A program made the translations under genes and the position numbers. Below, in pieces: positions 3,892 through 47,254 of a stretch of DNA of 64,000 nucleotides. Origin of the DNA: an uncultured Candidatus Saccharibacteria bacterium (GTDB lineage Bacteria > Patescibacteriota > Doudnabacteria > UBA920); contig CAZEKH010000002.1 in NCBI GenBank assembly GCA_964512925.1, positions 122,505 to 186,504 of the forward strand, given 5' to 3'. The notes beneath the pieces were generated by a model, which worked only from the letters and a program-made list of their open reading frames with translations, had not been told where the DNA came from and did no database searches. The first letter of the stretch is position 1. Each line of letters opens with the position of its first letter.

Positions 3892-4899
3892 ATGAAAATT
3901 ATTTTTTACGAATCAACGCCTGAAGACGAAAACTCGTTTCGCGATATTTTTAAAAGCATCGAAGGCTTGGAAATGGTCTTTTGTTCGGACGTTTTGTCGG
4001 ATAAAAACATCTCTTTGGCCAAAGACTGTAGCGCGGTTTCAGTCTTCATCGGCTCCAAAGTTACAGCAGAGCTGATTAGCCAACTACCTAACACAAAAAT
4101 CATAACCACCCGCTCAACAGGCTATGACCACATAGATAAAGACGCTGCCAAACAAAAAAATATCGTGGTTTGCAATGTTCCAGCCTACGGCTCAAGGACA
4201 GTGGCGGAATTTACTTTTGCTCTCATACTCGGACTTTCCCGCAAAGCTTTTCTAGCCTACCGACAGCTAAAAGACCAGCATAATTTTGACATTTCCCATT
4301 TTGAAGGCTTTAACCTCCAGGGTAAAACCCTGGGTGTGGTTGGCACGGGCAGGATTGGTCAAAATGTGATCAAAATAGCCAAAGGCTTTGAGATGAATGT
4401 CCTGGGCTTTGACCTGTTTCCAAAAAACGAGCTTGAAACTTCTTTAGGTTTTAAATATTCATCTCTAAACGAACTGCTCGCAGGCTCAGACATCATCACC
4501 CTGCACGTTCCATATACCAAAGATACGCACCATCTGATCAACTCCACCAACATCAAATCCGTCAAACCCGGCGCTTTACTCATCAACACGGCCCGCGGCG
4601 AAGTAGTCGAAACGGACGCTTTACTTTATGCGCTCAAACATAAAATCCTGTCCGGGGCGGGGCTGGATGTTTTGGAAGGCGAACGAGAACTCAAGGACGA
4701 AATGGCTTCCATCCTTCAGGAAAATGTTGCCAATGTAAAAATCTTGCTTGAAGACCATATGCTGATGGACGATTCCAATGTGGCCCTCACCCCGCATATC
4801 GCTTTTTTTACCAAGGAAGCCAAAAAAGAAATCTGCCAAACCACGGCAGACAACATTGCAAATTTTTTCAAAAACCAACCGCAAAATTTAGTCGCTTAA
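3892..4899 (+). CDS. D-isomer-specific 2-hydroxyacid dehydrogenase (D-lactate/glycerate dehydrogenase-like)
   Basis: NAD-binding motif GVVGTGRIGQ and the catalytic region are typical of the family. The ATG at 3892 is preferred over the upstream GTG. Confidence 0.8.
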   Translation: MKIIFYESTPEDENSFRDIFKSIEGLEMVFCSDVLSDKNISLAKDCSAVSVFIGSKVTAELISQLPNTKIITTRSTGYDHIDKDAAKQKNIVVCNVPAYGSRTVAEFTFALILGLSRKAFLAYRQLKDQHNFDISHFEGFNLQGKTLGVVGTGRIGQNVIKIAKGFEMNVLGFDLFPKNELETSLGFKYSSLNELLAGSDIITLHVPYTKDTHHLINSTNIKSVKPGALLINTARGEVVETDALLYALKHKILSGAGLDVLEGERELKDEMASILQENVANVKILLEDHMLMDDSNVALTPHIAFFTKEAKKEICQTTADNIANFFKNQPQNLVA

Positions 4900-41458: not shown

Positions 41459-41863
41459 TTATTGACCGTCCGTAGCTTTACGCGAAGGAGGTAGCGTAGG
41501 AGGGTTACGATTGAATGGGGGTAGGATTTTGTTTTTTATATAAATAAAACTAACCGGACAGATCGAAAAAATCTGTCCGGTTTTTTTGCCGCTCATCGTC
41601 CCCAGCTTTCCCGTTTCCCGTACTCGAAGGCCCGAAAGTTCAATCCTTACCCCAGGTTTTCTCTTTGCTCTTTGACAGGCAACTTGAATTTGCTTCAAGT
41701 CAACATTAAAGCCATAACTTACTACCAACACCAAGGTAACACCGTGGTCTGTACAGACGACGCTTCCAACCCGGGTGATGGCTTCTCCCTTTACTTCATA
41801 TACTATGAAAGAACCACCTTCAAACGCAAGCTCAAACCTAATACGATCCACTGGGTAATGCAT
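41459..41863 (-). CDS. Hypothetical small protein; could instead be part of a structured non-coding region
   Basis: Perfect SD (AAGGAGG) 5 nt before the ATG, in GC-rich DNA. However, the ORF reads through the guaA terminator hairpin and has no recognisable family. Confidence 0.25.
   Translation of the reverse strand: MHYPVDRIRFELAFEGGSFIVYEVKGEAITRVGSVVCTDHGVTLVLVVSYGFNVDLKQIQVACQRAKRKPGVRIELSGLRVRETGKLGTMSGKKTGQIFSICPVSFIYIKNKILPPFNRNPPTLPPSRKATDGQ
41555..41587 (+). terminator. Rho-independent terminator of guaA
   Basis: ccggacagat-cgaaaaaa-atctgtccgg followed by TTTTTTT. Confidence 0.8.
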
Positions 41864-42353
41864 ACACCCTCCTTCTTTTTCAGCAACGTTTTTTGTGCTG
41901 GCCTTTTTCGGGTTTAAAAAACCAAAAAAGGCCAAAACAAAACCCCGGACAAAGTCCGGGGTGTCTAAATTTTTATTTAGTACACTTAAACAGGACTTTG
42001 CGCTCGCAAAGCCCATCCCCAAACACCCAATTGTATTTTTCTCATTGCATTCATACGTATATATTATACCTCTTACAAAAACCTGTCAAAACAAACCCAA
42101 AACACCTTTCACTCATAAAAATTCCGTTTTTTGCTAGAATAGACTGCGTTAGTAGAAAAATACTTTCCGTTCCTATAAGTTTTTTTTGTTTGCATCCAGA
42201 GGTTTCAAAAGGCAAATCAAGGGGCGTCGAAATTTGCGGCGCCCCTTGATCCGCAATCTCGTATTTTTCGATCCAAAGCTTGTAATTTTAAATCCGTGAC
42301 AAAATGTCACGACCTCTCTTCCCGCTTCAATTATAAGACTTAATTTTATTTAA

Positions 42354-44612
42354 CTATAATTCTTTAACTTTACTTAACACCTCTTCAATATTAGCATTAG
42401 TTACCAGAAAGAAGTGCAGTTTTCCTTTCCCCAAACTTTGCCATACTTCTGCGAGAGCTACCTTATAAGCAGTATCTTCATTACTTACCCTGTCTTCGCC
42501 TTTCCATTCCAACGCAACCATGTTGCCCATCTTACTAAACGCAACAAAATCAGGATAAAACTTATTTTTCTGCCAGCCTTGTAAATAAAAATCCAATTTT
42601 TCTCTATTCCTTACCCAAAACTCTATATTTGGCAACATATCCAAATCTAACCTAGAAACAAAATTCTCTTCTTCTTTGTTTAACTTGCCAACTTGAGGAT
42701 AATAATTTTTATTAAAATCTTTAGGCAAAACCTTGTCCACGATTATTGTTTCTGGAAAAGTTTTAAAAGGCTTCGTGGAAACTTTTTTCTTTTTTATAAG
42801 ATCTTCAAAACGCTTTTTAGCATAATCCTTTAAAATTGCTTCAATAACTTCGCTTAATTTCTCACACAAAACATACCTGTTTATAGATAGCTCTGTTAGT
42901 GATCTTGTTTTTAACAAGTGGTTAATTGCTTTATCTAAAAACTTTACTTTGTCCGACTGTTCAAGCAGGGTAAAACGAAGTTTCTTATCTAGCCACTGCA
43001 CCAACTCTTTTTGTGTAGCGTTTTTTAAACGATAGGGTAAATTTAAATGCAGCTGCTTCCCTTGTTTCCAGTGGTCTCCCTCAATATCTATAATTGCACG
43101 GCCATCATTGTCAAAATGCACATCAAAATTAAATTCAGCCTCTTGTTTAGCTAGAGAAAAATCAGCGCCAATTAACTCCTCAAAAGTTAAAGGTTCGCCA
43201 TCTAAAGCCATCATAGGCACGGCAAAATCTTGTTTAAAAGCACGATGAATTTCTAGCGGATCTTTTTGGACTTTGTCAGTGCCATTTATTAAATCAGCTT
43301 TACTAAAGCCATTGGAAACCAGCCCTTTTATAATTTCGTCTGCGGCTTCGTTAAAGTTTCGGGCAGAAGCAAAAACAAAGCTTCTGTTTAAATCTTCAAC
43401 TTCTTTTCTTTTAGCGTAAGGCATTCGGATAATGCGGCCTATAATTTGTTCTACCGCAATCTTCGCACCAATGTTGGCAAGTGAAATTAATACATAAGCA
43501 AAAGAACAGTCCCAACCTTCAGCTAAGGCATTAACTGTAATAATATATTTAATCGGGCATTTGTTACTAAAAAGGTTTACACCTTCCAATTCGTTCTTTT
43601 CAGATGTTTTGATAGCTATTTCTTCTTCAGCTATTTTCATTTTTAATAGCTGTTCTTTAACCTGCTCAACAGTAATGTTATTTTGGGTTTTGCTATTTGG
43701 CTGTGCTTGAATTAAAGCAATTGGCCTTATATATTCGCCTTTATTTTTCTTGGTAAGCTTTTCTAATTCCTCACGCTTATCCAAACCCCGTGTTAAAGAT
43801 TGCTCCCAATGGTTAGAACTTTCTAATACAATTGGAATTTTAACCATTTGCTCGGTCTTCAAATCAGCCGCTGAAATGTCTACCAATATATTACTGCCAT
43901 CCCTAGGAGTAGCGGTATATTCTACAATAAAGCTCGGGTTAAGTTCTTTTAAAAAATCAACAGAAAGTTGGGTTTGGGTTCTATGCCCCTCGTCAATAAC
44001 AATTAGCGGATTATACATCCGAATCACATTGGCTAAAGATATAATTACTCCTGATTCATCTTTTTCTAGTAAGCTGTCATCTCCAATATTTTCAAAGAAA
44101 TTTAATAGCTGTCCGTTTTCTTGGTAAACTTTGTATTTCTTTTGCAAAGACTTCTCTTTCCTAAAAGCATCAAGAGAAGAAATTACAATACACAAATTAT
44201 CTTCAACATCTTCTTTGCGAATTCTTAAGGCTTCTTCATTCGAAAAAATCCTCACACCATTTTCAAAAACTTCATCCAAAATTTGCCTATGCCAGTCCTT
44301 CCGATCTTTAAGTTTATTTATCGTTTGAGTTTTAATTGCTTCGGACGGCACAAACCACATAACAATACCCCTGTCCATTTTATGTTTTAGTACAGTGCTA
44401 TAAATTAAACCAACAGAATTAGCGGCAACAACTGTTTTGCCACCTCCCGTAGGGATTTTTACGCACACAAAAGGCACTTCACCAAAAGAATTGGATTTAT
44501 AAGGCTCTTCAACCACACTCATAAAAGCCATCTTCGGGCCAAATTTCTCCAAAAGTTTTAAAAACTCTTTAAGCTTTTCCAGTGCAGTTTGTTGATATTT
44601 TTTTAGTTCCAT
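42354..44612 (-). CDS. res: Type III restriction enzyme, Res subunit (SF2 helicase-nuclease)
   Basis: Walker A PTGGGKT and DEGH box (VIDEGHR). 752 aa. Lies downstream of mod. Confidence 0.85.
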   Translation of the reverse strand: MELKKYQQTALEKLKEFLKLLEKFGPKMAFMSVVEEPYKSNSFGEVPFVCVKIPTGGGKTVVAANSVGLIYSTVLKHKMDRGIVMWFVPSEAIKTQTINKLKDRKDWHRQILDEVFENGVRIFSNEEALRIRKEDVEDNLCIVISSLDAFRKEKSLQKKYKVYQENGQLLNFFENIGDDSLLEKDESGVIISLANVIRMYNPLIVIDEGHRTQTQLSVDFLKELNPSFIVEYTATPRDGSNILVDISAADLKTEQMVKIPIVLESSNHWEQSLTRGLDKREELEKLTKKNKGEYIRPIALIQAQPNSKTQNNITVEQVKEQLLKMKIAEEEIAIKTSEKNELEGVNLFSNKCPIKYIITVNALAEGWDCSFAYVLISLANIGAKIAVEQIIGRIIRMPYAKRKEVEDLNRSFVFASARNFNEAADEIIKGLVSNGFSKADLINGTDKVQKDPLEIHRAFKQDFAVPMMALDGEPLTFEELIGADFSLAKQEAEFNFDVHFDNDGRAIIDIEGDHWKQGKQLHLNLPYRLKNATQKELVQWLDKKLRFTLLEQSDKVKFLDKAINHLLKTRSLTELSINRYVLCEKLSEVIEAILKDYAKKRFEDLIKKKKVSTKPFKTFPETIIVDKVLPKDFNKNYYPQVGKLNKEEENFVSRLDLDMLPNIEFWVRNREKLDFYLQGWQKNKFYPDFVAFSKMGNMVALEWKGEDRVSNEDTAYKVALAEVWQSLGKGKLHFFLVTNANIEEVLSKVKEL

Positions 44613-44737
44613 AAAAAATTTTAGTAATTGTGGGTAACTTGACGCATCCTAAAGTATGTTATAATATAAGTAATCAATAAGTAGGCCTCTTATAAGCGAA
44701 AGTCGGCTCCATGCCGTGCGTTGGGAAACCAACCTAG

Positions 44738-45520
44738 CTATAAGGGGCTTATTTTATTTATTGAGAAGGTGTTACCTCTGCTGTAAAAATTATTGGGATA
44801 TTTATCTGTATCATAAACGTCACAAACGAATTTTACTTTACTTTCAATAAATTTATAATAACGATCCTCGCCTCTTACAAAAGCTCTTTGAATAGCCCAA
44901 TTCATATAATCAACTATTTGCAAACATGCTTCTCCATATGGACTTTGTGGGAGAATGGCTATTTTTGAATCAATTTTCATTTTATGCTCAGTTTCAAATG
45001 AATTTTTTGCGGTTTGGATAGCTTCCTCCAAAGGAGCCTGGCGAGTTTTATTACCCCTAACAGCAAAGTAAATAAAAATTTGTTCAGCAACGTGTAATTT
45101 ATTTTTGAACAACTTAATTATTAAATCGTCATAGAATAAATTTTCTTTGCCTTTATGACGCACCTTAAAAATATTTTCAATTTTTCTTGCAACAATGAAT
45201 TCCGCTTTAAAATCTAAACCTAAAATAGTTTTATAAACTTTCTCTCTAATTTCCGGCGTATCGTCTTTAGCATGAAACGCTAAATGACTTTTCTTTAGCG
45301 AAGGAATATCTTTAAGATACTCATCGTTCTTTATCTCCTCATGAAGTTTGAATATTGCATTTCTTAAAGGTTCTGGGTTAGTTGTTTTGATGAAGCCAAG
45401 TAATAAAATTTTTGAACATCCCTCTTTGCCAACAATATACCTACCATATCTATCATAAAAAGTAGAATCACCGGCCTCATCCACAAAAAAATACTGGGTT
45501 TTTACATCATTCAACTTCAT
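44738..45520 (-). CDS. DUF3800-like protein inserted between mod and res
   Basis: N-terminal YFFVDEAGD and C-terminal LQIVDYMNWAIQRAF match the DUF3800 pattern. Confidence 0.5.
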   Translation of the reverse strand: MKLNDVKTQYFFVDEAGDSTFYDRYGRYIVGKEGCSKILLLGFIKTTNPEPLRNAIFKLHEEIKNDEYLKDIPSLKKSHLAFHAKDDTPEIREKVYKTILGLDFKAEFIVARKIENIFKVRHKGKENLFYDDLIIKLFKNKLHVAEQIFIYFAVRGNKTRQAPLEEAIQTAKNSFETEHKMKIDSKIAILPQSPYGEACLQIVDYMNWAIQRAFVRGEDRYYKFIESKVKFVCDVYDTDKYPNNFYSRGNTFSINKISPL

Positions 45521-45521
45521 A

Positions 45522-47075
45522 TTAGTAAACCCTTACCTCATAAGGGATTTGTTTAAAGATTAAATTATACTTTTCTAAATCCGAATTATCCAGTAAACAC
45601 CTATCAGCATAAATGACTTTCTTGCTTCCGTCTTTTTTCAGCTTCTTTAGAAAAGATTTGTCTAAAATGTTGTTACCTTTTTCCCTAAATAACAAATAAA
45701 ATTCGGTTTCGCCAAACGTTCCAATAAAATTATTTCTAATATTTTTTGGATCAATGTTGGTCTGGGTTTCGGTAAAATAAATATAGGTTGCAAGCTGATT
45801 AAATTCGCACTCTTCTTCTATTTGACCTTCTTCATTAAACAAAGGCTTGCTAAGTTCACAATATTCAAATCCATCATTGTAATCATATTTTTTAATGGCA
45901 CGCCTAACACGCTCGGCTGTTATATCCTTAGCAACTTTATCTTCCATTTCGACCATTATAAATTTACGATCACCTCCATCTTCTTTATTTAGATCCATCA
46001 CAGCATGGCCTGTTGTGCCAGATCCAGCAAAGGAGTCTAAAATTATTGAGTTTTTATCTGTTGATAATTGTAAAATCCTCTTTAGTAATCTGACTGGTTT
46101 TGGGGTCGCAAAAGGAACTTGTTCTAATTCTTCAAAAAATAACTTTATCTCTCTTTTGGCTTCTTGATTATGACCTACTTCATCGGAAACCCAAATGGTA
46201 TCTACTTTTTTTCCTTGCTGTACTTCGGTTAAAAATCTTTTTAGCCTAGGAAAAGCTGTTCCGTCTTTACCAAACCAGATTCTATTTTCAGCAATCATAT
46301 TCAAAAGATTGTCTTTAGAGTAAACCCAATGCTTGCCTTTGGGTACATTGTATTTCTTTCCTTTGGGGGCTGTTATCTCATAATAACCTTCTTTCCTCTC
46401 TTCGTTCGCAACCAAATCACCAGAAGACCATGGACCCCTTGGGTCATTATCAGGATTTTGAAACCTGGCATTCATTGATTCTGTGCGAGGTAAAAGGTTT
46501 ATTACTATCTTTTCTAAATTATTTGCATAACAAAAAATATATTCGTGGTTGTCTGAGACATATTTTGCATCATTCTTAGTACTGTGAATTTTTTCCCAAA
46601 TAAAATTGGCAATAAAATTTTCACGACCAAAAACTTCATCCATAAGCCCTTTAAAATAGTGACCTTCATAATCATCTATAGAAACAAAAATCATTCCATC
46701 ATCGGATAATAAATCCTTTAAAAGTTTAAGTCGAGGCAACATCATACATAGCCATTTATCATGACGGTTTAAATCTTCAGACTCTCGCCCCACAACCTTT
46801 CCTAACCACTTTTTTATTTTTGGTGAATTAACTTTGTCATTGTAAACCCAGCCCTCGTTACCAGTGTTGTACGGGGGATCTATGTAAATACATTTAACCT
46901 TACCGGCATAGTAAGGCATTAAAGCCTTAAGAGCTTCTAGATTATCACCATGTATAATTAAATTTTGCGAATGGTCACCGACAGAAGCGCTTTTAACTTT
47001 TTTCAGAAGTCTAAAGGGTACTTCTTTATCGTGGTTAGCAACTGCTTCTTTACCAATCCAGTTTAAAGTAGGCAT
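45522..47075 (-). CDS. mod: Type III R-M N6-adenine DNA methyltransferase, Mod subunit
   Basis: IYIDPPYNTGNEGW (motif IV, DPPY) and a C-terminal FAGSGTTGHAV (motif I). Confidence 0.85.
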   Translation of the reverse strand: MPTLNWIGKEAVANHDKEVPFRLLKKVKSASVGDHSQNLIIHGDNLEALKALMPYYAGKVKCIYIDPPYNTGNEGWVYNDKVNSPKIKKWLGKVVGRESEDLNRHDKWLCMMLPRLKLLKDLLSDDGMIFVSIDDYEGHYFKGLMDEVFGRENFIANFIWEKIHSTKNDAKYVSDNHEYIFCYANNLEKIVINLLPRTESMNARFQNPDNDPRGPWSSGDLVANEERKEGYYEITAPKGKKYNVPKGKHWVYSKDNLLNMIAENRIWFGKDGTAFPRLKRFLTEVQQGKKVDTIWVSDEVGHNQEAKREIKLFFEELEQVPFATPKPVRLLKRILQLSTDKNSIILDSFAGSGTTGHAVMDLNKEDGGDRKFIMVEMEDKVAKDITAERVRRAIKKYDYNDGFEYCELSKPLFNEEGQIEEECEFNQLATYIYFTETQTNIDPKNIRNNFIGTFGETEFYLLFREKGNNILDKSFLKKLKKDGSKKVIYADRCLLDNSDLEKYNLIFKQIPYEVRVY

Positions 47076-47254
47076 TTTAATTTTTTCAAATCTTCTATTA
47101 AATTTCCTAAAACTTTCTACACCAGGACTCTTATATTCTATATTTTACACCCTTCTTAAGTTCTTTTCCATAACAAAAATCCCTTGTTTCAAAGGGTTTT
47201 GGGAAATTTTGTGGATTGGAATGGGACTTACAGTAATATAAATTTAACACGCAC

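What the first reader, a model, noticed from the sequence alone, without database searches (positions are those of the whole stretch)
42354..47075. Type III R-M operon with a DUF3800-like gene inserted between mod and res
Mod (DPPY, FAGSG) and Res (PTGGGKT, DEGH) are normally adjacent or overlapping. Here a 260-aa protein with DUF3800 hallmarks (YFFVDEAGD, HAKDD, LQIVDYMNWAIQRAF) lies between them, separated from res by a 125-bp spacer that contains a GC-rich hairpin. DUF3800 proteins recur in defence islands. This may be an accessory defence or regulatory component riding inside the R-M system.
Basis: partly seen in the sequence, partly recalled or inferred. Interest (0 to 1): 0.55.

Follow-up and report, generated by a model that had tools for sequence, protein, structure and literature searches.

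The report
Nuclease-plus-antisense-RNA cassette inside restriction operon
A type III restriction-modification operon has been split between its two genes by a small, widely travelled cassette made of an RNase H-like DUF3800 gene and a previously unlisted structured antisense RNA gene, which gives a testable handle on what DUF3800-RNA pairs do.

Summary

The spacer is not a passive hairpin. It holds the promoter and 5' half of a ~95-nt structured RNA gene on the opposite strand (about 44672-44764, +). Its closing stem overlaps the last codons of DUF3800.

The DUF3800 gene plus this RNA form one conserved cassette. All 79 assessable loci from many phyla carry the RNA. The structure shows strong covariation and matches no Rfam 15 family.

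Most copies sit beside housekeeping genes. About 14 of 80 are embedded in methylation-based defence operons: type III and IIG R-M, BREX, HKD-helicase and MADS systems.

None of 70 related type III R-M loci carries this cassette. However, 29 of them hold other small genes in the same mod-res slot, including HEPN/AbiU2, NYN and a distant DUF3800.

My best reading, which is inferred, is an autonomous RNA-controlled nuclease module of the toxin-antitoxin or abortive-infection kind. It would ride in an R-M "cargo slot" as PrrC does in EcoprrI, and would not be an R-M subunit. No function has been shown.

The parts
45522..47075 (-). mod, type III DNA methyltransferase (517 aa)
   Evidence: ORF. Pfam N6_N4_Mtase 2.4e-42. 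PADLOC MTase_III 1e-191. DPPY and FAGSG motifs seen in the translation. The central part (residues ~120-360) differs from the near-identical locus L001, consistent with a swapped target-recognition domain.
44738..45520 (-). DUF3800 gene (260 aa), predicted type-2 RNase H-like nuclease; its ATG lies 1 nt after the mod stop codon
   Evidence: Pfam PF12686 above cut-off; PADLOC DUF3800_VII 1e-27. D14 (>=90%), E15, E107, Q201 (>=90%) and D204 conserved, giving the DE and QxxD motifs. AlphaFold2 model, pLDDT 80, pTM 0.82; best Foldseek matches are RNase HII (1eke_B, E 3.6e-6) and RNase H3, followed by Argonaute PIWI domains.
44639..44667 (+). Promoter of the antisense RNA: -35 TTGACG 44639-44644; -10 TATAAT 44660-44665 (15-nt spacer) or TAATAT 44662-44667 (17-nt spacer)
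   Evidence: Sequence; scan. Across 80 loci the best TTGACA/TATAAT match on this strand averages 9.96 of 12 (53 loci at 10 or more). The other strand averages 7.7 and shuffles 7.95. The -10 box lies about 10 nt from the outer end of stem P1.
44672..44764 (+). Predicted ~95-nt structured ncRNA, convergent with and antisense to the 3' end of the DUF3800 gene (covariance-model hit 44669-44770)
   Evidence: 94.3 bits, E 3.7e-21, the only significant hit in the 64-kb window. MFE -36 kcal/mol, z -5.27, folds into the consensus three-way junction; the opposite strand gives -27.4 kcal/mol, z -3.2, and a non-consensus fold. Transcript ends are inferred from the promoter and the U-run and have not been measured.
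44676..44697 (+). P1, 5' strand of the closing stem
   Evidence: 14 consensus pairs, 10 of them with compensatory changes, 93.7% of cells paired.
44704..44716 (+). P3 hairpin (CGGC-UCCAUG-CCG), highly conserved, flanked by the conserved junctions GAAAGU and UGC
   Evidence: 99.7% of cells paired; C-G changes to A-U, U-A or G-C in 12 sequences at pair 41-56.
44720..44733 (+). P2 hairpin (GUUGG-GAAA-CCAAC), variable in sequence and length
   Evidence: 4 of 4 pairs show compensatory changes; 100% of cells paired.
44734..44737 (+). Invariant CUAG junction
   Evidence: invariant in 75 of 75 sequences.
44737..44755 (+). P1, 3' strand; it is the complement of the DUF3800 stop codon and the last ~6 codons (K-I-S-P-L)
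   Evidence: Synonymous third-codon positions covary with the non-coding partner strand; for example the Pro third position against its partner gives UA 44, CG 14, AU 3.
44751..44762 (+). U-rich tract after P1 (UUUUAUUUAUU), a terminator-like 3' end
   Evidence: It is the complement of the conserved A-rich Lys/Asn codons. The mean is 5.8 U in the 10 nt after P1 across loci. Termination here is inferred.
42354..44612 (-). res, type III restriction subunit (752 aa)
   Evidence: ResIII 5e-14. PADLOC REase_III 3.7e-94. PTGGGKT and DEGH helicase motifs and a C-terminal YPDF...LEWK (PD-ExK-like) motif were read in the translation. No promoter-like site on the minus strand lies between the RNA gene and the res ATG, so res is probably read through from upstream.
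44629..44637 (+). DnaA-box-like TGTGGGTAA directly upstream of the -35 box (minor, unexplained)
   Evidence: 8 of 80 loci have TTATCCACA with at most 1 mismatch in this area, against 1.65 expected.

Best explanation
The region is an intact type III R-M operon whose mod-res junction holds a ~0.9-kb autonomous two-part cassette.

Part one is a DUF3800 protein, a type-2 RNase H-like enzyme that is probably metal-dependent (D14-E15, E107, Q201xxD204). In this window it is translationally abutted to mod.

Part two is a ~95-nt structured RNA. It is transcribed from its own near-consensus sigma-70 promoter on the opposite strand. It forms a three-way junction whose closing stem is complementary to the last codons of DUF3800, and it ends in a U-run.

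Shown here: the anatomy, the strict co-occurrence of gene and RNA, the covariation, the strand, the promoter, and the insertion into an otherwise contiguous R-M.

Inferred: the pair works as an RNA-controlled nuclease module of the toxin-antitoxin or abortive-infection kind.
- The abundant antisense RNA binds the nuclease through its conserved junction nucleotides and keeps it inactive, and/or it duplexes with the 3' end of the nuclease's mRNA.
- When the RNA supply or integrity is disturbed, for example by phage shut-off of host transcription or by loss of the locus, the nuclease is released.
- Placement in the mod-res slot links its inheritance to the R-M and may provide a second line of defence, as PrrC does in EcoprrI.
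- As a side effect, res must be transcribed through a convergent promoter, which probably lowers or uncouples Res expression.
For: Cassette unity:
- 79 of 80 genome loci encoding this protein family (47-98% identity, many phyla) carry the RNA element at the same place and on the same strand. The 80th contig ends too early to assess.
- There are 0 hits in 640 kb of related R-M loci that lack the gene.

Structure:
- 95.9% of cells are paired.
- The covariation score is 0.568 against 0.249 in shuffles (0 of 500 reach it) and 0.06-0.12 when the pairs are slid.
- 16 of 22 pairs show compensatory changes.

Strand:
- The pair that is C.A on the gene strand in 66 of 75 sequences is a G.U wobble on the opposite strand; a second pair is CG 45 / CA 30.
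- RNAalifold gives -20.3 kcal/mol and 22 pairs on the antisense strand, against -13.2 kcal/mol and 13 pairs on the sense strand.
- The window RNA folds at -36 kcal/mol (z -5.3) against -27 kcal/mol for the other strand.
- A conserved TTGACA/TATAAT promoter lies on that strand, ~10 nt from P1.

Nuclease fold. This agrees with PMC7736814 (RNase H2-like, DEED) and PMC10910872.

Insertion: 41 of 70 related R-M loci have adjacent mod and res.

Defence or toxin-like flavour:
- The same slot in 29 of 70 related R-M loci holds other small genes in at least 17 unrelated clusters, including HEPN_AbiU2, HEPN, NYN and a distant DUF3800.
- This cassette is embedded independently in other type III R-M families (L014, L005, L060), in type IIG MTase + HKD-Snf2 systems (L020, L027, L029, L034, L039), in BREX between brxC and pglX (L025), and next to MADS and PDC-S68 genes.
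- DUF3800 is the effector partner in type VII retrons, where a structured nucleic acid also accompanies it (PMC7736814).
- Embedded RNases have been shown to be defences elsewhere (bioRxiv 10.1101/2024.01.29.577857).
Against: - There are no expression, toxicity or binding data. The transcript ends are predicted only.
- About 66 of 80 loci show no recognisable defence neighbour, so the defence link is an enrichment that I did not test statistically.
- The protein is unusually conserved for a defence toxin: at least 47% identity across phyla.
- The family is essentially absent from phage, plasmid and IMG/VR collections, where addiction modules are often found.
- There is no cognate-specific pairing between the RNA and the DUF3800 translation-start region (p 0.29), so any antisense control would act only through the 3' overlap.
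- In the one system where a DUF3800 protein (Csx32) was handled experimentally, no role was assigned to it (bioRxiv 10.64898/2026.08.25.746378).
Confidence: 0.5

Rival explanations
1. DUF3800 is a dedicated accessory or regulatory subunit of this type III R-M system. It would modulate restriction or methylation directly.
For: It is translationally abutted to mod. The arrangement is retained, with DUF3800 98% and Res 93% identical, in a second genome, L001. Two or three other type III systems from different families also carry the cassette directly after mod (L014, L060, L005).
Against: None of 70 closest related mod-res loci has it. Most of the 80 loci with the cassette have no R-M genes. The same cassette sits in BREX, type IIG and other systems. 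The slot accepts at least 17 unrelated gene families.
Confidence: 0.1
2. The RNA is a cofactor and not an inhibitor. DUF3800 would be an RNA-dependent, guide- or scaffold-using nuclease, in the manner of Argonaute or TnpB, and the structured RNA would license or target it.
For: The RNase H/PIWI-like fold. Obligate co-occurrence with one RNA. Highly conserved single-stranded junction nucleotides typical of protein-binding scaffolds. The RNA overlaps the 3' end of the gene, as omega-RNAs do in TnpB (my own knowledge). DUF3800 proteins accompany Cas12a2/a3 and Cas13 loci (PMC10910872, PMC13594972).
Against: There is no variable, guide-like single-stranded segment. The 5' end appears to start at P1 and the 3' end is the U-run. 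The only variable part, P2, is a covarying hairpin. The RNA is on the opposite strand to the gene, unlike omega-RNA.
Confidence: 0.15
3. The element acts on the gene strand as a 3'-UTR structure, terminator or attenuator. It would separate mod-DUF3800 from res and tune Res expression.
For: It lies exactly between DUF3800 and res. The gene strand can also fold (-27.4 kcal/mol, z -3.2). R-M systems need controlled Res expression (general knowledge).
Against: Conserved C.A mismatches on the gene strand become G.U on the other strand. The gene-strand consensus fold is weaker, with fewer pairs. No U-run follows the structure on the gene strand, and the scan finds no terminator there. The element is equally conserved where no gene follows in the same direction. 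A conserved promoter points the other way.
Confidence: 0.07
4. The cassette is a mobile element. DUF3800 would act as an RNase H-fold (DDE-like) recombinase, and the structured element would be its single-stranded DNA recognition end.
For: The distribution is patchy and horizontally spread, with many unrelated insertion contexts. tRNA or tmRNA genes lie nearby in a few loci. G.T wobble is also possible in folded ssDNA.
Against: No second end or inverted repeat was noticed. The left boundary is the start codon itself, often overlapping the upstream gene by 4 nt. The fold matches RNase HII/H3 and not transposases. The promoter and U-run argue for an RNA product. There is one copy per locus and no orphan elements.
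Confidence: 0.05

Closest known systems
DUF3800-associated RNA motifs DUF3800-I to -XI (Weinberg et al. 2017, PMC5737381)
   Same: A structured, covarying RNA is encoded right next to a DUF3800 gene, on either strand. Some are followed by terminators, and several occur in multiple phyla. Their function is unknown.
   Different: No Rfam 15 family matches this element in the window or in 12 other loci; Rfam 15 holds at least DUF3800-I and -IX (PMC11701678). Here the closing stem overlaps the last codons of the gene, and a conserved promoter fixes the strand as antisense. I could not compare it with the original supplementary alignments of motifs II-XI, which are not held.
PrrC anticodon nuclease inside the EcoprrI type Ic hsd locus (as summarised in bioRxiv 10.1101/2024.01.29.577857 and PMC3710099)
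   Same: A nuclease gene is embedded between the genes of an R-M operon. It serves as the model for a 'backup' defence linked to the surrounding R-M.
   Different: PrrC is an ABC-ATPase + HEPN RNase that is held in check by the R-M proteins, and it has no RNA partner. Here the fold is RNase H-like, there is a dedicated antisense RNA, and the host is a type III system. No activity has been tested.
Embedded defence genes ('guilt-by-embedding', Payne et al. 2024, bioRxiv 10.1101/2024.01.29.577857)
   Same: Small genes, including HEPN, NYN and RelE RNases, are nested within multi-gene defence systems. The related R-M loci here carry HEPN/AbiU2 and NYN genes in the mod-res slot.
   Different: That survey covered Hma, BREX, DISARM and type I R-M, not type III. 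Its main text does not mention DUF3800. In PADLOC v2 the protein here matches only the retron model DUF3800_VII and no PDC or HEC candidate.
Type VII retrons (RT + DUF3800 effector + msr/msd RNA; Mestre et al. 2020, PMC7736814)
   Same: A DUF3800 protein with the DE motif and an RNase H2-like model is coupled to a structured non-coding nucleic acid. The best PADLOC hit is the retron-VII DUF3800 model.
   Different: There is no reverse transcriptase in the window flanks, and none appears among the most frequent neighbour families. This protein keeps the QxxD motif, which the retron proteins lack according to that paper.
Type I toxin-antitoxin pairs with convergent, 3'-overlapping antisense RNAs (txpA/RatA and bsrG/SR4 of Bacillus subtilis; my own knowledge)
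   Same: A convergent antisense RNA with its own strong promoter overlaps the 3' end of the partner gene.
   Different: Those toxins are small membrane peptides and the RNAs act purely by base pairing. Here the protein is a 260-aa enzyme, and the RNA has conserved unpaired nucleotides that suggest protein binding.
Type III toxin-antitoxin ToxIN (my own knowledge)
   Same: An RNA is proposed to neutralise a nuclease by direct binding, and the system has an abortive-infection function.
   Different: ToxI is a tandem repeat array on the same strand that is processed by the toxin. Here there is a single-copy RNA on the opposite strand and no repeats.

Membership tests
Pfam DUF3800 (PF12686) | Profile score above the curated gathering cut-off over the whole domain | tested here: met
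   29.5 bits against 21, E 1.4e-6, profile positions 1-149 of 149. Most homologues carry a precomputed PF12686 hit.
Pfam DUF3800 (PF12686) | N-terminal DE motif and C-terminal QxxD motif (as described in PMC7736814) | tested here: met
   D14 (>=90%) and E15 (invariant) in FFVDEAGD; Q201 (>=90%) and D204 (invariant) in LQIVDY.
Pfam DUF3800 (PF12686) | RNase H-like (type 2) fold | tested here: met
   model pLDDT 80, pTM 0.82. Top Foldseek hits are RNase HII and H3 (probability 1.0, E 3.6e-6 to 1e-4). TM-scores are only ~0.4, so this shows fold-level similarity only.
Type III restriction-modification system | Mod subunit: N6/N4 DNA methyltransferase with DPPY and FxGxG motifs | tested here: met
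   motifs read.
Type III restriction-modification system | Res subunit: SF2 helicase motifs plus a PD-(D/E)xK endonuclease motif | tested here: met
   (ResIII; PADLOC REase_III 3.7e-94). PTGGGKT, DEGH and YPDF...LEWK were read. The endonuclease motif was identified by eye only.
Type III restriction-modification system | mod directly followed by res (adjacent or overlapping) | tested here: not met
   909 nt separate them here. Of 70 relatives, 41 are adjacent (gap 2-12 nt) and 29 carry inserts. This is a departure in architecture and does not cast doubt on the enzymes.
Weinberg DUF3800 RNA motifs (I-XI) | Conserved, covarying RNA structure encoded next to a DUF3800 gene | tested here: met
Weinberg DUF3800 RNA motifs (I-XI) | Match to one of the described motif models | tested here: not met
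   No Rfam 15 hit at E <= 10 in the 271-nt region, at E <= 1 in 5.6 kb, or at gathering score in 12 loci. Caveat: I could verify only that Rfam 15 contains DUF3800-I and -IX. The original supplement is not held.
Type VII retron | Reverse transcriptase gene and msr/msd next to the DUF3800 effector | tested here: not met
   The window neighbours are GuaA, an unassigned 187-aa ORF, DUF1905, VIT1 and RecQ. No RT family appears among the commonest neighbour families.
Type I toxin-antitoxin | Antisense RNA overlapping the toxin mRNA | tested here: met
   A predicted overlap of ~27 nt with the 3' end of the CDS plus its downstream transcript. This is a prediction, not transcript data.
Type I toxin-antitoxin | Toxicity of the protein, relieved by the RNA | not testable with these tools
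   Needs expression experiments.
Type III toxin-antitoxin (ToxIN-like) | Tandem repeat RNA on the toxin strand, processed by the toxin | tested here: not met
   One copy per locus, on the opposite strand.
PrrC-like embedded anticodon nuclease | ABC ATPase + HEPN nuclease domains | tested here: not met
   Pfam and PADLOC give only DUF3800.

The most novel reading that the evidence does not exclude
The DUF3800 gene plus its convergent structured antisense RNA is a widespread, uncharacterised class of two-component immunity or addiction module. A type-2 RNase H-like nuclease would be held in check, or licensed, by a dedicated RNA. The module would preferentially nest in methylation-based defence operons (type III and IIG R-M, BREX) as a backup that fires when transcription or the surrounding system is subverted. 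If so, this would give the first functional explanation for the DUF3800 RNA motifs, which have been unexplained since 2017. It would also define the mod-res junction of type III R-M as a cargo slot for such effectors.
Probability: 0.3. Interest if true: 0.8.

Novelty: new variant of a known kind. Interest (0 to 1): 0.62.

Why it matters
DUF3800 proteins turn up beside retrons, Cas12a2/a3 and Cas13 loci, and beside at least eleven unrelated structured RNAs, yet no function is known for the protein or for any of the RNAs.

This cassette is a compact case of about 0.9 kb, conserved in more than 500 species. Its RNA strand, promoter, ends and secondary structure can be stated precisely. It sits in the same operon slot that HEPN/AbiU2 and NYN RNases occupy in sister R-M systems.

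That turns an open puzzle into a direct experiment: express the protein with and without the RNA, test toxicity, binding and phage defence, and repeat with and without the R-M.

It also extends the 'embedded defence gene' idea to type III R-M systems. In this family the mod-res junction carries cargo in about 40% of loci.

Tried and rejected
- **Known RNA family.** Rfam 15 scans of the window, of 12 related loci, of L149 and of three viral loci gave no relevant match. Searches failed because of size limits.
- **Micro-ORF in the RNA.** The AUG in the P3 loop and the UAG of CUAG are in frame in only 16 of 75 sequences, and the AUG is not always present. Rejected.
- **Trans-acting pairing of the RNA with the DUF3800 ribosome-binding region.** Cognate and non-cognate duplex energies do not differ: -17.1 against -16.6 kcal/mol, p 0.29. 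Rejected.
- **Gene-strand terminator.** There is no U-run and the consensus fold is weaker. Rejected as the main role.
- **Carriage by phages or plasmids.** No phage match. One 32%-identity plasmid hit. Three hits at 28-30% identity among 2.9 million viral contigs.
- **Solved structure by sequence.** None found.
- **Source organism.** The exact-sequence look-ups gave no name or contig. The closest homologues are mostly Patescibacteria, so the origin stays unassigned.
- **PHROGs and NCBIfam.** Both gave nothing for the DUF3800 protein.
- **Supplement of Weinberg 2017.** Not held, so no direct comparison with motifs II-XI was possible.

Full report
**1.

A 125-nt gap separates the middle gene from res. 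One nucleotide separates the mod stop codon from the middle gene's ATG.

- Mod is a type III methyltransferase: Pfam N6_N4_Mtase 2.4e-42 and PADLOC MTase_III 1e-191.
- Res is a type III restriction subunit: ResIII 5e-14 and PADLOC REase_III 3.7e-94.
- The middle protein passes Pfam's DUF3800 cut-off over the full profile (29.5 against 21 bits). It also hits PADLOC's DUF3800_VII model at 1e-27.

The island has lower G+C (~0.33) than its flanks (0.40-0.50). It sits between housekeeping genes: GuaA on one side; DUF1905, VIT1 and RecQ on the other.

**2. The protein**

The family is large and tightly conserved. There are 1094 clusters, and the best 120 are all at least 60% identical and about 260 aa long.

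The alignment shows D14-E15, E107 and Q201xxD204 conserved (D14 and Q201 in at least 90% of sequences, the others invariant), plus an invariant C-terminal K-I-S-P-L.

An AlphaFold2 model (pLDDT 80, pTM 0.82) matches RNase HII and RNase H3 best in the PDB (E 3.6e-6 to 1e-4, TM about 0.4), followed by Argonaute PIWI domains. A sequence search of the PDB finds nothing.

This agrees with published statements that DUF3800 is an RNase H2-like fold with a rearranged 'DEED' site (PMC7736814, PMC10910872). No paper I could find assigns it a function. In the 2026 CASK study the DUF3800 protein Csx32 was left without a role.

**3. The 'spacer with a hairpin' is a conserved RNA gene on the other strand**

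I fetched 80 genome loci that encode relatives of the protein, out of at least 536 species hits. They span Patescibacteria, Chloroflexota, Clostridia, Bacteroidia, Elusimicrobia, Planctomycetota, Acidobacteriota and others.

Nearly every locus shows the same element straight after the stop codon. Written on the gene strand it reads: CTAG, a variable hairpin, GCACGGCATGRAGCCGACTTTCRC, and then a stretch complementary to the last codons of the gene.

*Structure.* Alignments of 75 non-identical copies (A2 gene strand, A5 opposite strand) give a three-way junction.
- P1 is the closing stem. One of its strands lies inside the coding sequence.
- P3 is a conserved hairpin.
- P2 is a variable hairpin.

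On the opposite strand 95.9% of cells form standard pairs. Sixteen of 22 pairs show compensatory changes. The covariation score is 0.568, against 0.249 in shuffles (0 of 500 reach it) and 0.06-0.12 when partners are slid. Synonymous third-codon positions of the last codons covary with the non-coding strand.

In Clostridia-type and Gracilibacteria-type loci the stop codon is missing and the ORF runs through the element, yet the nucleotides stay conserved. The constraint is therefore on the nucleic acid.

*Strand.* Several lines point to the strand opposite the DUF3800 gene (window plus strand).
- One P1 pair is C.A on the gene strand in 66 of 75 sequences, which is G.U on the opposite strand. 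Another is C-G in 45 and C.A in 30.
- RNAalifold gives -20.3 kcal/mol with 22 pairs on the opposite strand, against -13.2 kcal/mol with 13 pairs on the gene strand.
- The window sequence folds into the consensus shape at -36 kcal/mol (z -5.3) on the plus strand. On the minus strand it gives -27.4 kcal/mol and a different shape.
- A TTGACA/TATAAT-type promoter is conserved on that strand. The mean best score is 9.96 of 12, and 53 of 80 loci score at least 10. The other strand averages 7.7 and shuffles 7.95. The -10 box lies about 10 nt from the outer end of P1.
- On that strand P1 is followed by a U-rich run.

*In the window.* The -35 box is TTGACG at 44639-44644. The -10 box is TATAAT at 44660-44665. 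The predicted RNA spans about 44672-44764. The promoter and the 5' part of the RNA gene therefore account for nearly all of the 125-nt spacer.

*Specificity.* A covariance model built from A5 gives the following.
- A single strong hit in the window: 44669-44770, plus strand, 94.3 bits.
- One hit in each of 79 of the 80 loci, always at the 3' end of the gene. The 80th contig ends too soon.
- Nothing significant in 640 kb of related R-M loci that lack the gene.

**4. Is the RNA already known?**

Weinberg et al. (PMC5737381) reported eleven unrelated RNA motifs next to DUF3800 genes and had no hypothesis for them. No Rfam 15 family matches this element. Rfam 15 contains at least DUF3800-I and -IX.

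I could not see the original supplement. The element is therefore 'not in Rfam', and is probably but not certainly a further motif of that class.

**5. Is the cassette part of the R-M system?**

Mostly not.
- With the window's Mod and Res as queries, only L001 repeats the mod-DUF3800-res order. L001 is a near-identical copy: DUF3800 98%, Res 93%, Mod 75%.
- Immediate neighbours across the 80 loci are heterogeneous and often housekeeping genes, such as SHMT, the RNA polymerase beta-prime subunit (Pfam RNA_pol_Rpb1 domains), DnaA, UvrA and aminoacyl-tRNA synthetases.
- I fetched 80 relatives of this R-M (Res 40-72% identical). None has the cassette. Of the 70 with both genes, 41 have mod and res 2-12 nt apart.

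The cassette is therefore an insertion into a normally contiguous operon.

**6. The slot and the company are not random**

- In 29 of those 70 R-M relatives the mod-res junction holds 240-1300 nt with co-oriented ORFs.
- These ORFs fall into at least 17 unrelated clusters. They include HEPN_AbiU2, HEPN, NYN and, in L149, a distant DUF3800.
- L149's DUF3800 is again followed by a ~100-nt spacer with a GC-rich stretch and an antisense TTGACT-16-TATAAT.
- The present cassette is embedded independently in several other systems:
  - type III systems of other PADLOC families: L014 (mod overlapping by 4 nt, res 113 nt downstream), L005 and L060;
  - type IIG-methyltransferase plus HKD-Snf2 helicase systems: L020, L027, L029, L034 and L039;
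  - BREX, between brxC and pglX: L025;
  - beside MADS and PDC-S68 genes: L074 and L019.
- By my count about 14 of 80 loci sit in methylation-based defence systems.
- About a third of loci have the DUF3800 gene within 35 nt of a co-directional upstream gene.

The precedent for nuclease genes nested in R-M operons is PrrC in EcoprrI. The general pattern was described for Hma, BREX, DISARM and type I R-M by Payne et al.. Type III systems and DUF3800 are not treated in that paper's main text. The protein here matches none of PADLOC's embedded candidates.

**7. How it most likely works**

*Shown.* This is a two-part unit: an RNase H-like enzyme gene plus a convergent, structured, independently promoted antisense RNA that overlaps the gene's 3' end. 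The unit is inherited and transferred as one piece, and here it is inserted into the mod-res junction.

*Inferred.* The RNA controls the nuclease by direct binding, by duplexing with the 3' end of its mRNA, or by both. The invariant unpaired CUAG, GAAAGU and UGC, together with the conserved P3 hairpin, look like a protein-binding platform. The unit would behave as a toxin-antitoxin or abortive-infection-like module, and its nesting in defence operons would couple inheritance and provide backup.

In this window res has no evident promoter of its own. It must therefore be read through a convergent promoter, which probably dampens or uncouples Res expression.

I put about 0.5 on this package. The anatomy itself is much more secure (about 0.9) than the function.

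*Rivals.*
- RNA as a cofactor or scaffold for an RNA-dependent nuclease: 0.15.
- Dedicated R-M accessory subunit: 0.1.
- Gene-strand attenuator or terminator: 0.07.
- Mobile element with an ssDNA end: 0.05.

*Negative tests.*
- No cognate pairing of the RNA with the translation-start region.
- No conserved micro-ORF.
- Essentially no presence on phages, plasmids or viral contigs.

**8. Verdict**

The finding is more interesting than first described. The 'spacer' is the second half of a conserved protein-RNA cassette, and the mod-res junction of this R-M family is a cargo slot for RNase-like genes. In kind it is a new variant of two known things, DUF3800-RNA pairs and defence genes embedded in R-M systems. 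It is not a categorically new system.

Noticed in passing
window 45522-47075 compared with L001 804-2360: The two Mod proteins are ~95% identical at both ends but only ~45-50% identical over residues ~120-360, which looks like a swapped target-recognition domain. DNA homology between the two genomes covers only the R-M plus the cassette (window ~42407-47094), so the island itself moves between genomic contexts.
   Followed up: partly
L081-L160 (mod-res junctions): In 29 of 70 related type III R-M loci the mod-res junction carries 240-1300 nt of co-oriented small genes. They fall into at least 17 unrelated clusters (HEPN_AbiU2, HEPN, NYN, a distant DUF3800, many without a Pfam match), so the junction is a cargo hotspot.
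   Followed up: partly
L149 3758-5000: A related R-M carries mod, a 112-aa ORF, a distant DUF3800 (4143-4898) and a ~100-nt spacer before res. The spacer has a GC-rich stretch and an antisense TTGACT-16-TATAAT. This may be a second, different DUF3800 antisense RNA. It has no Rfam match.
   Followed up: partly
window 44629-44637 (+); also L001, L002, L003, L005, L014: A DnaA-box-like TTATCCACA/TGTGGATAA (at most 1 mismatch) lies next to or inside the RNA promoter in 8 of 80 loci, against 1.65 expected by shuffling. Most of these are Patescibacteria-type loci. Its meaning is unknown.
   Followed up: partly
L046, L049, L053, L058, L061-L064, L067, L071, L073, L075; L035, L036: In Clostridia-type and Gracilibacteria/Peregrinibacteria-type loci the stop codon after K-I-S-P-L is replaced (CGG or GAG). 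The ORF then reads on through the RNA element. The Clostridia type also has extra sequence between the promoter and P1.
   Followed up: no
L002 3996-4379; L004, L049, L076: A tmRNA gene lies 230 nt downstream of the cassette in L002, and tRNA genes lie within a few kb in three other loci. These may be integration hotspots.
   Followed up: no
L016 7672-8181: A second, partial DUF3800 copy (56% identity) lies ~900 nt downstream of the first, at the contig end.
   Followed up: no
window 45564-45592 (-): A promoter-like site (TGGATA-17-TATAAT, 10 of 12) lies inside the 3' end of mod, ~45 nt upstream of the DUF3800 ATG. It could give the cassette gene some independent transcription, but it is a consensus match only.
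   Followed up: no
window 41459-42022 (-): A 187-aa ORF between guaA and res has no Pfam match. It may be non-coding or part of the island boundary.
   Followed up: no
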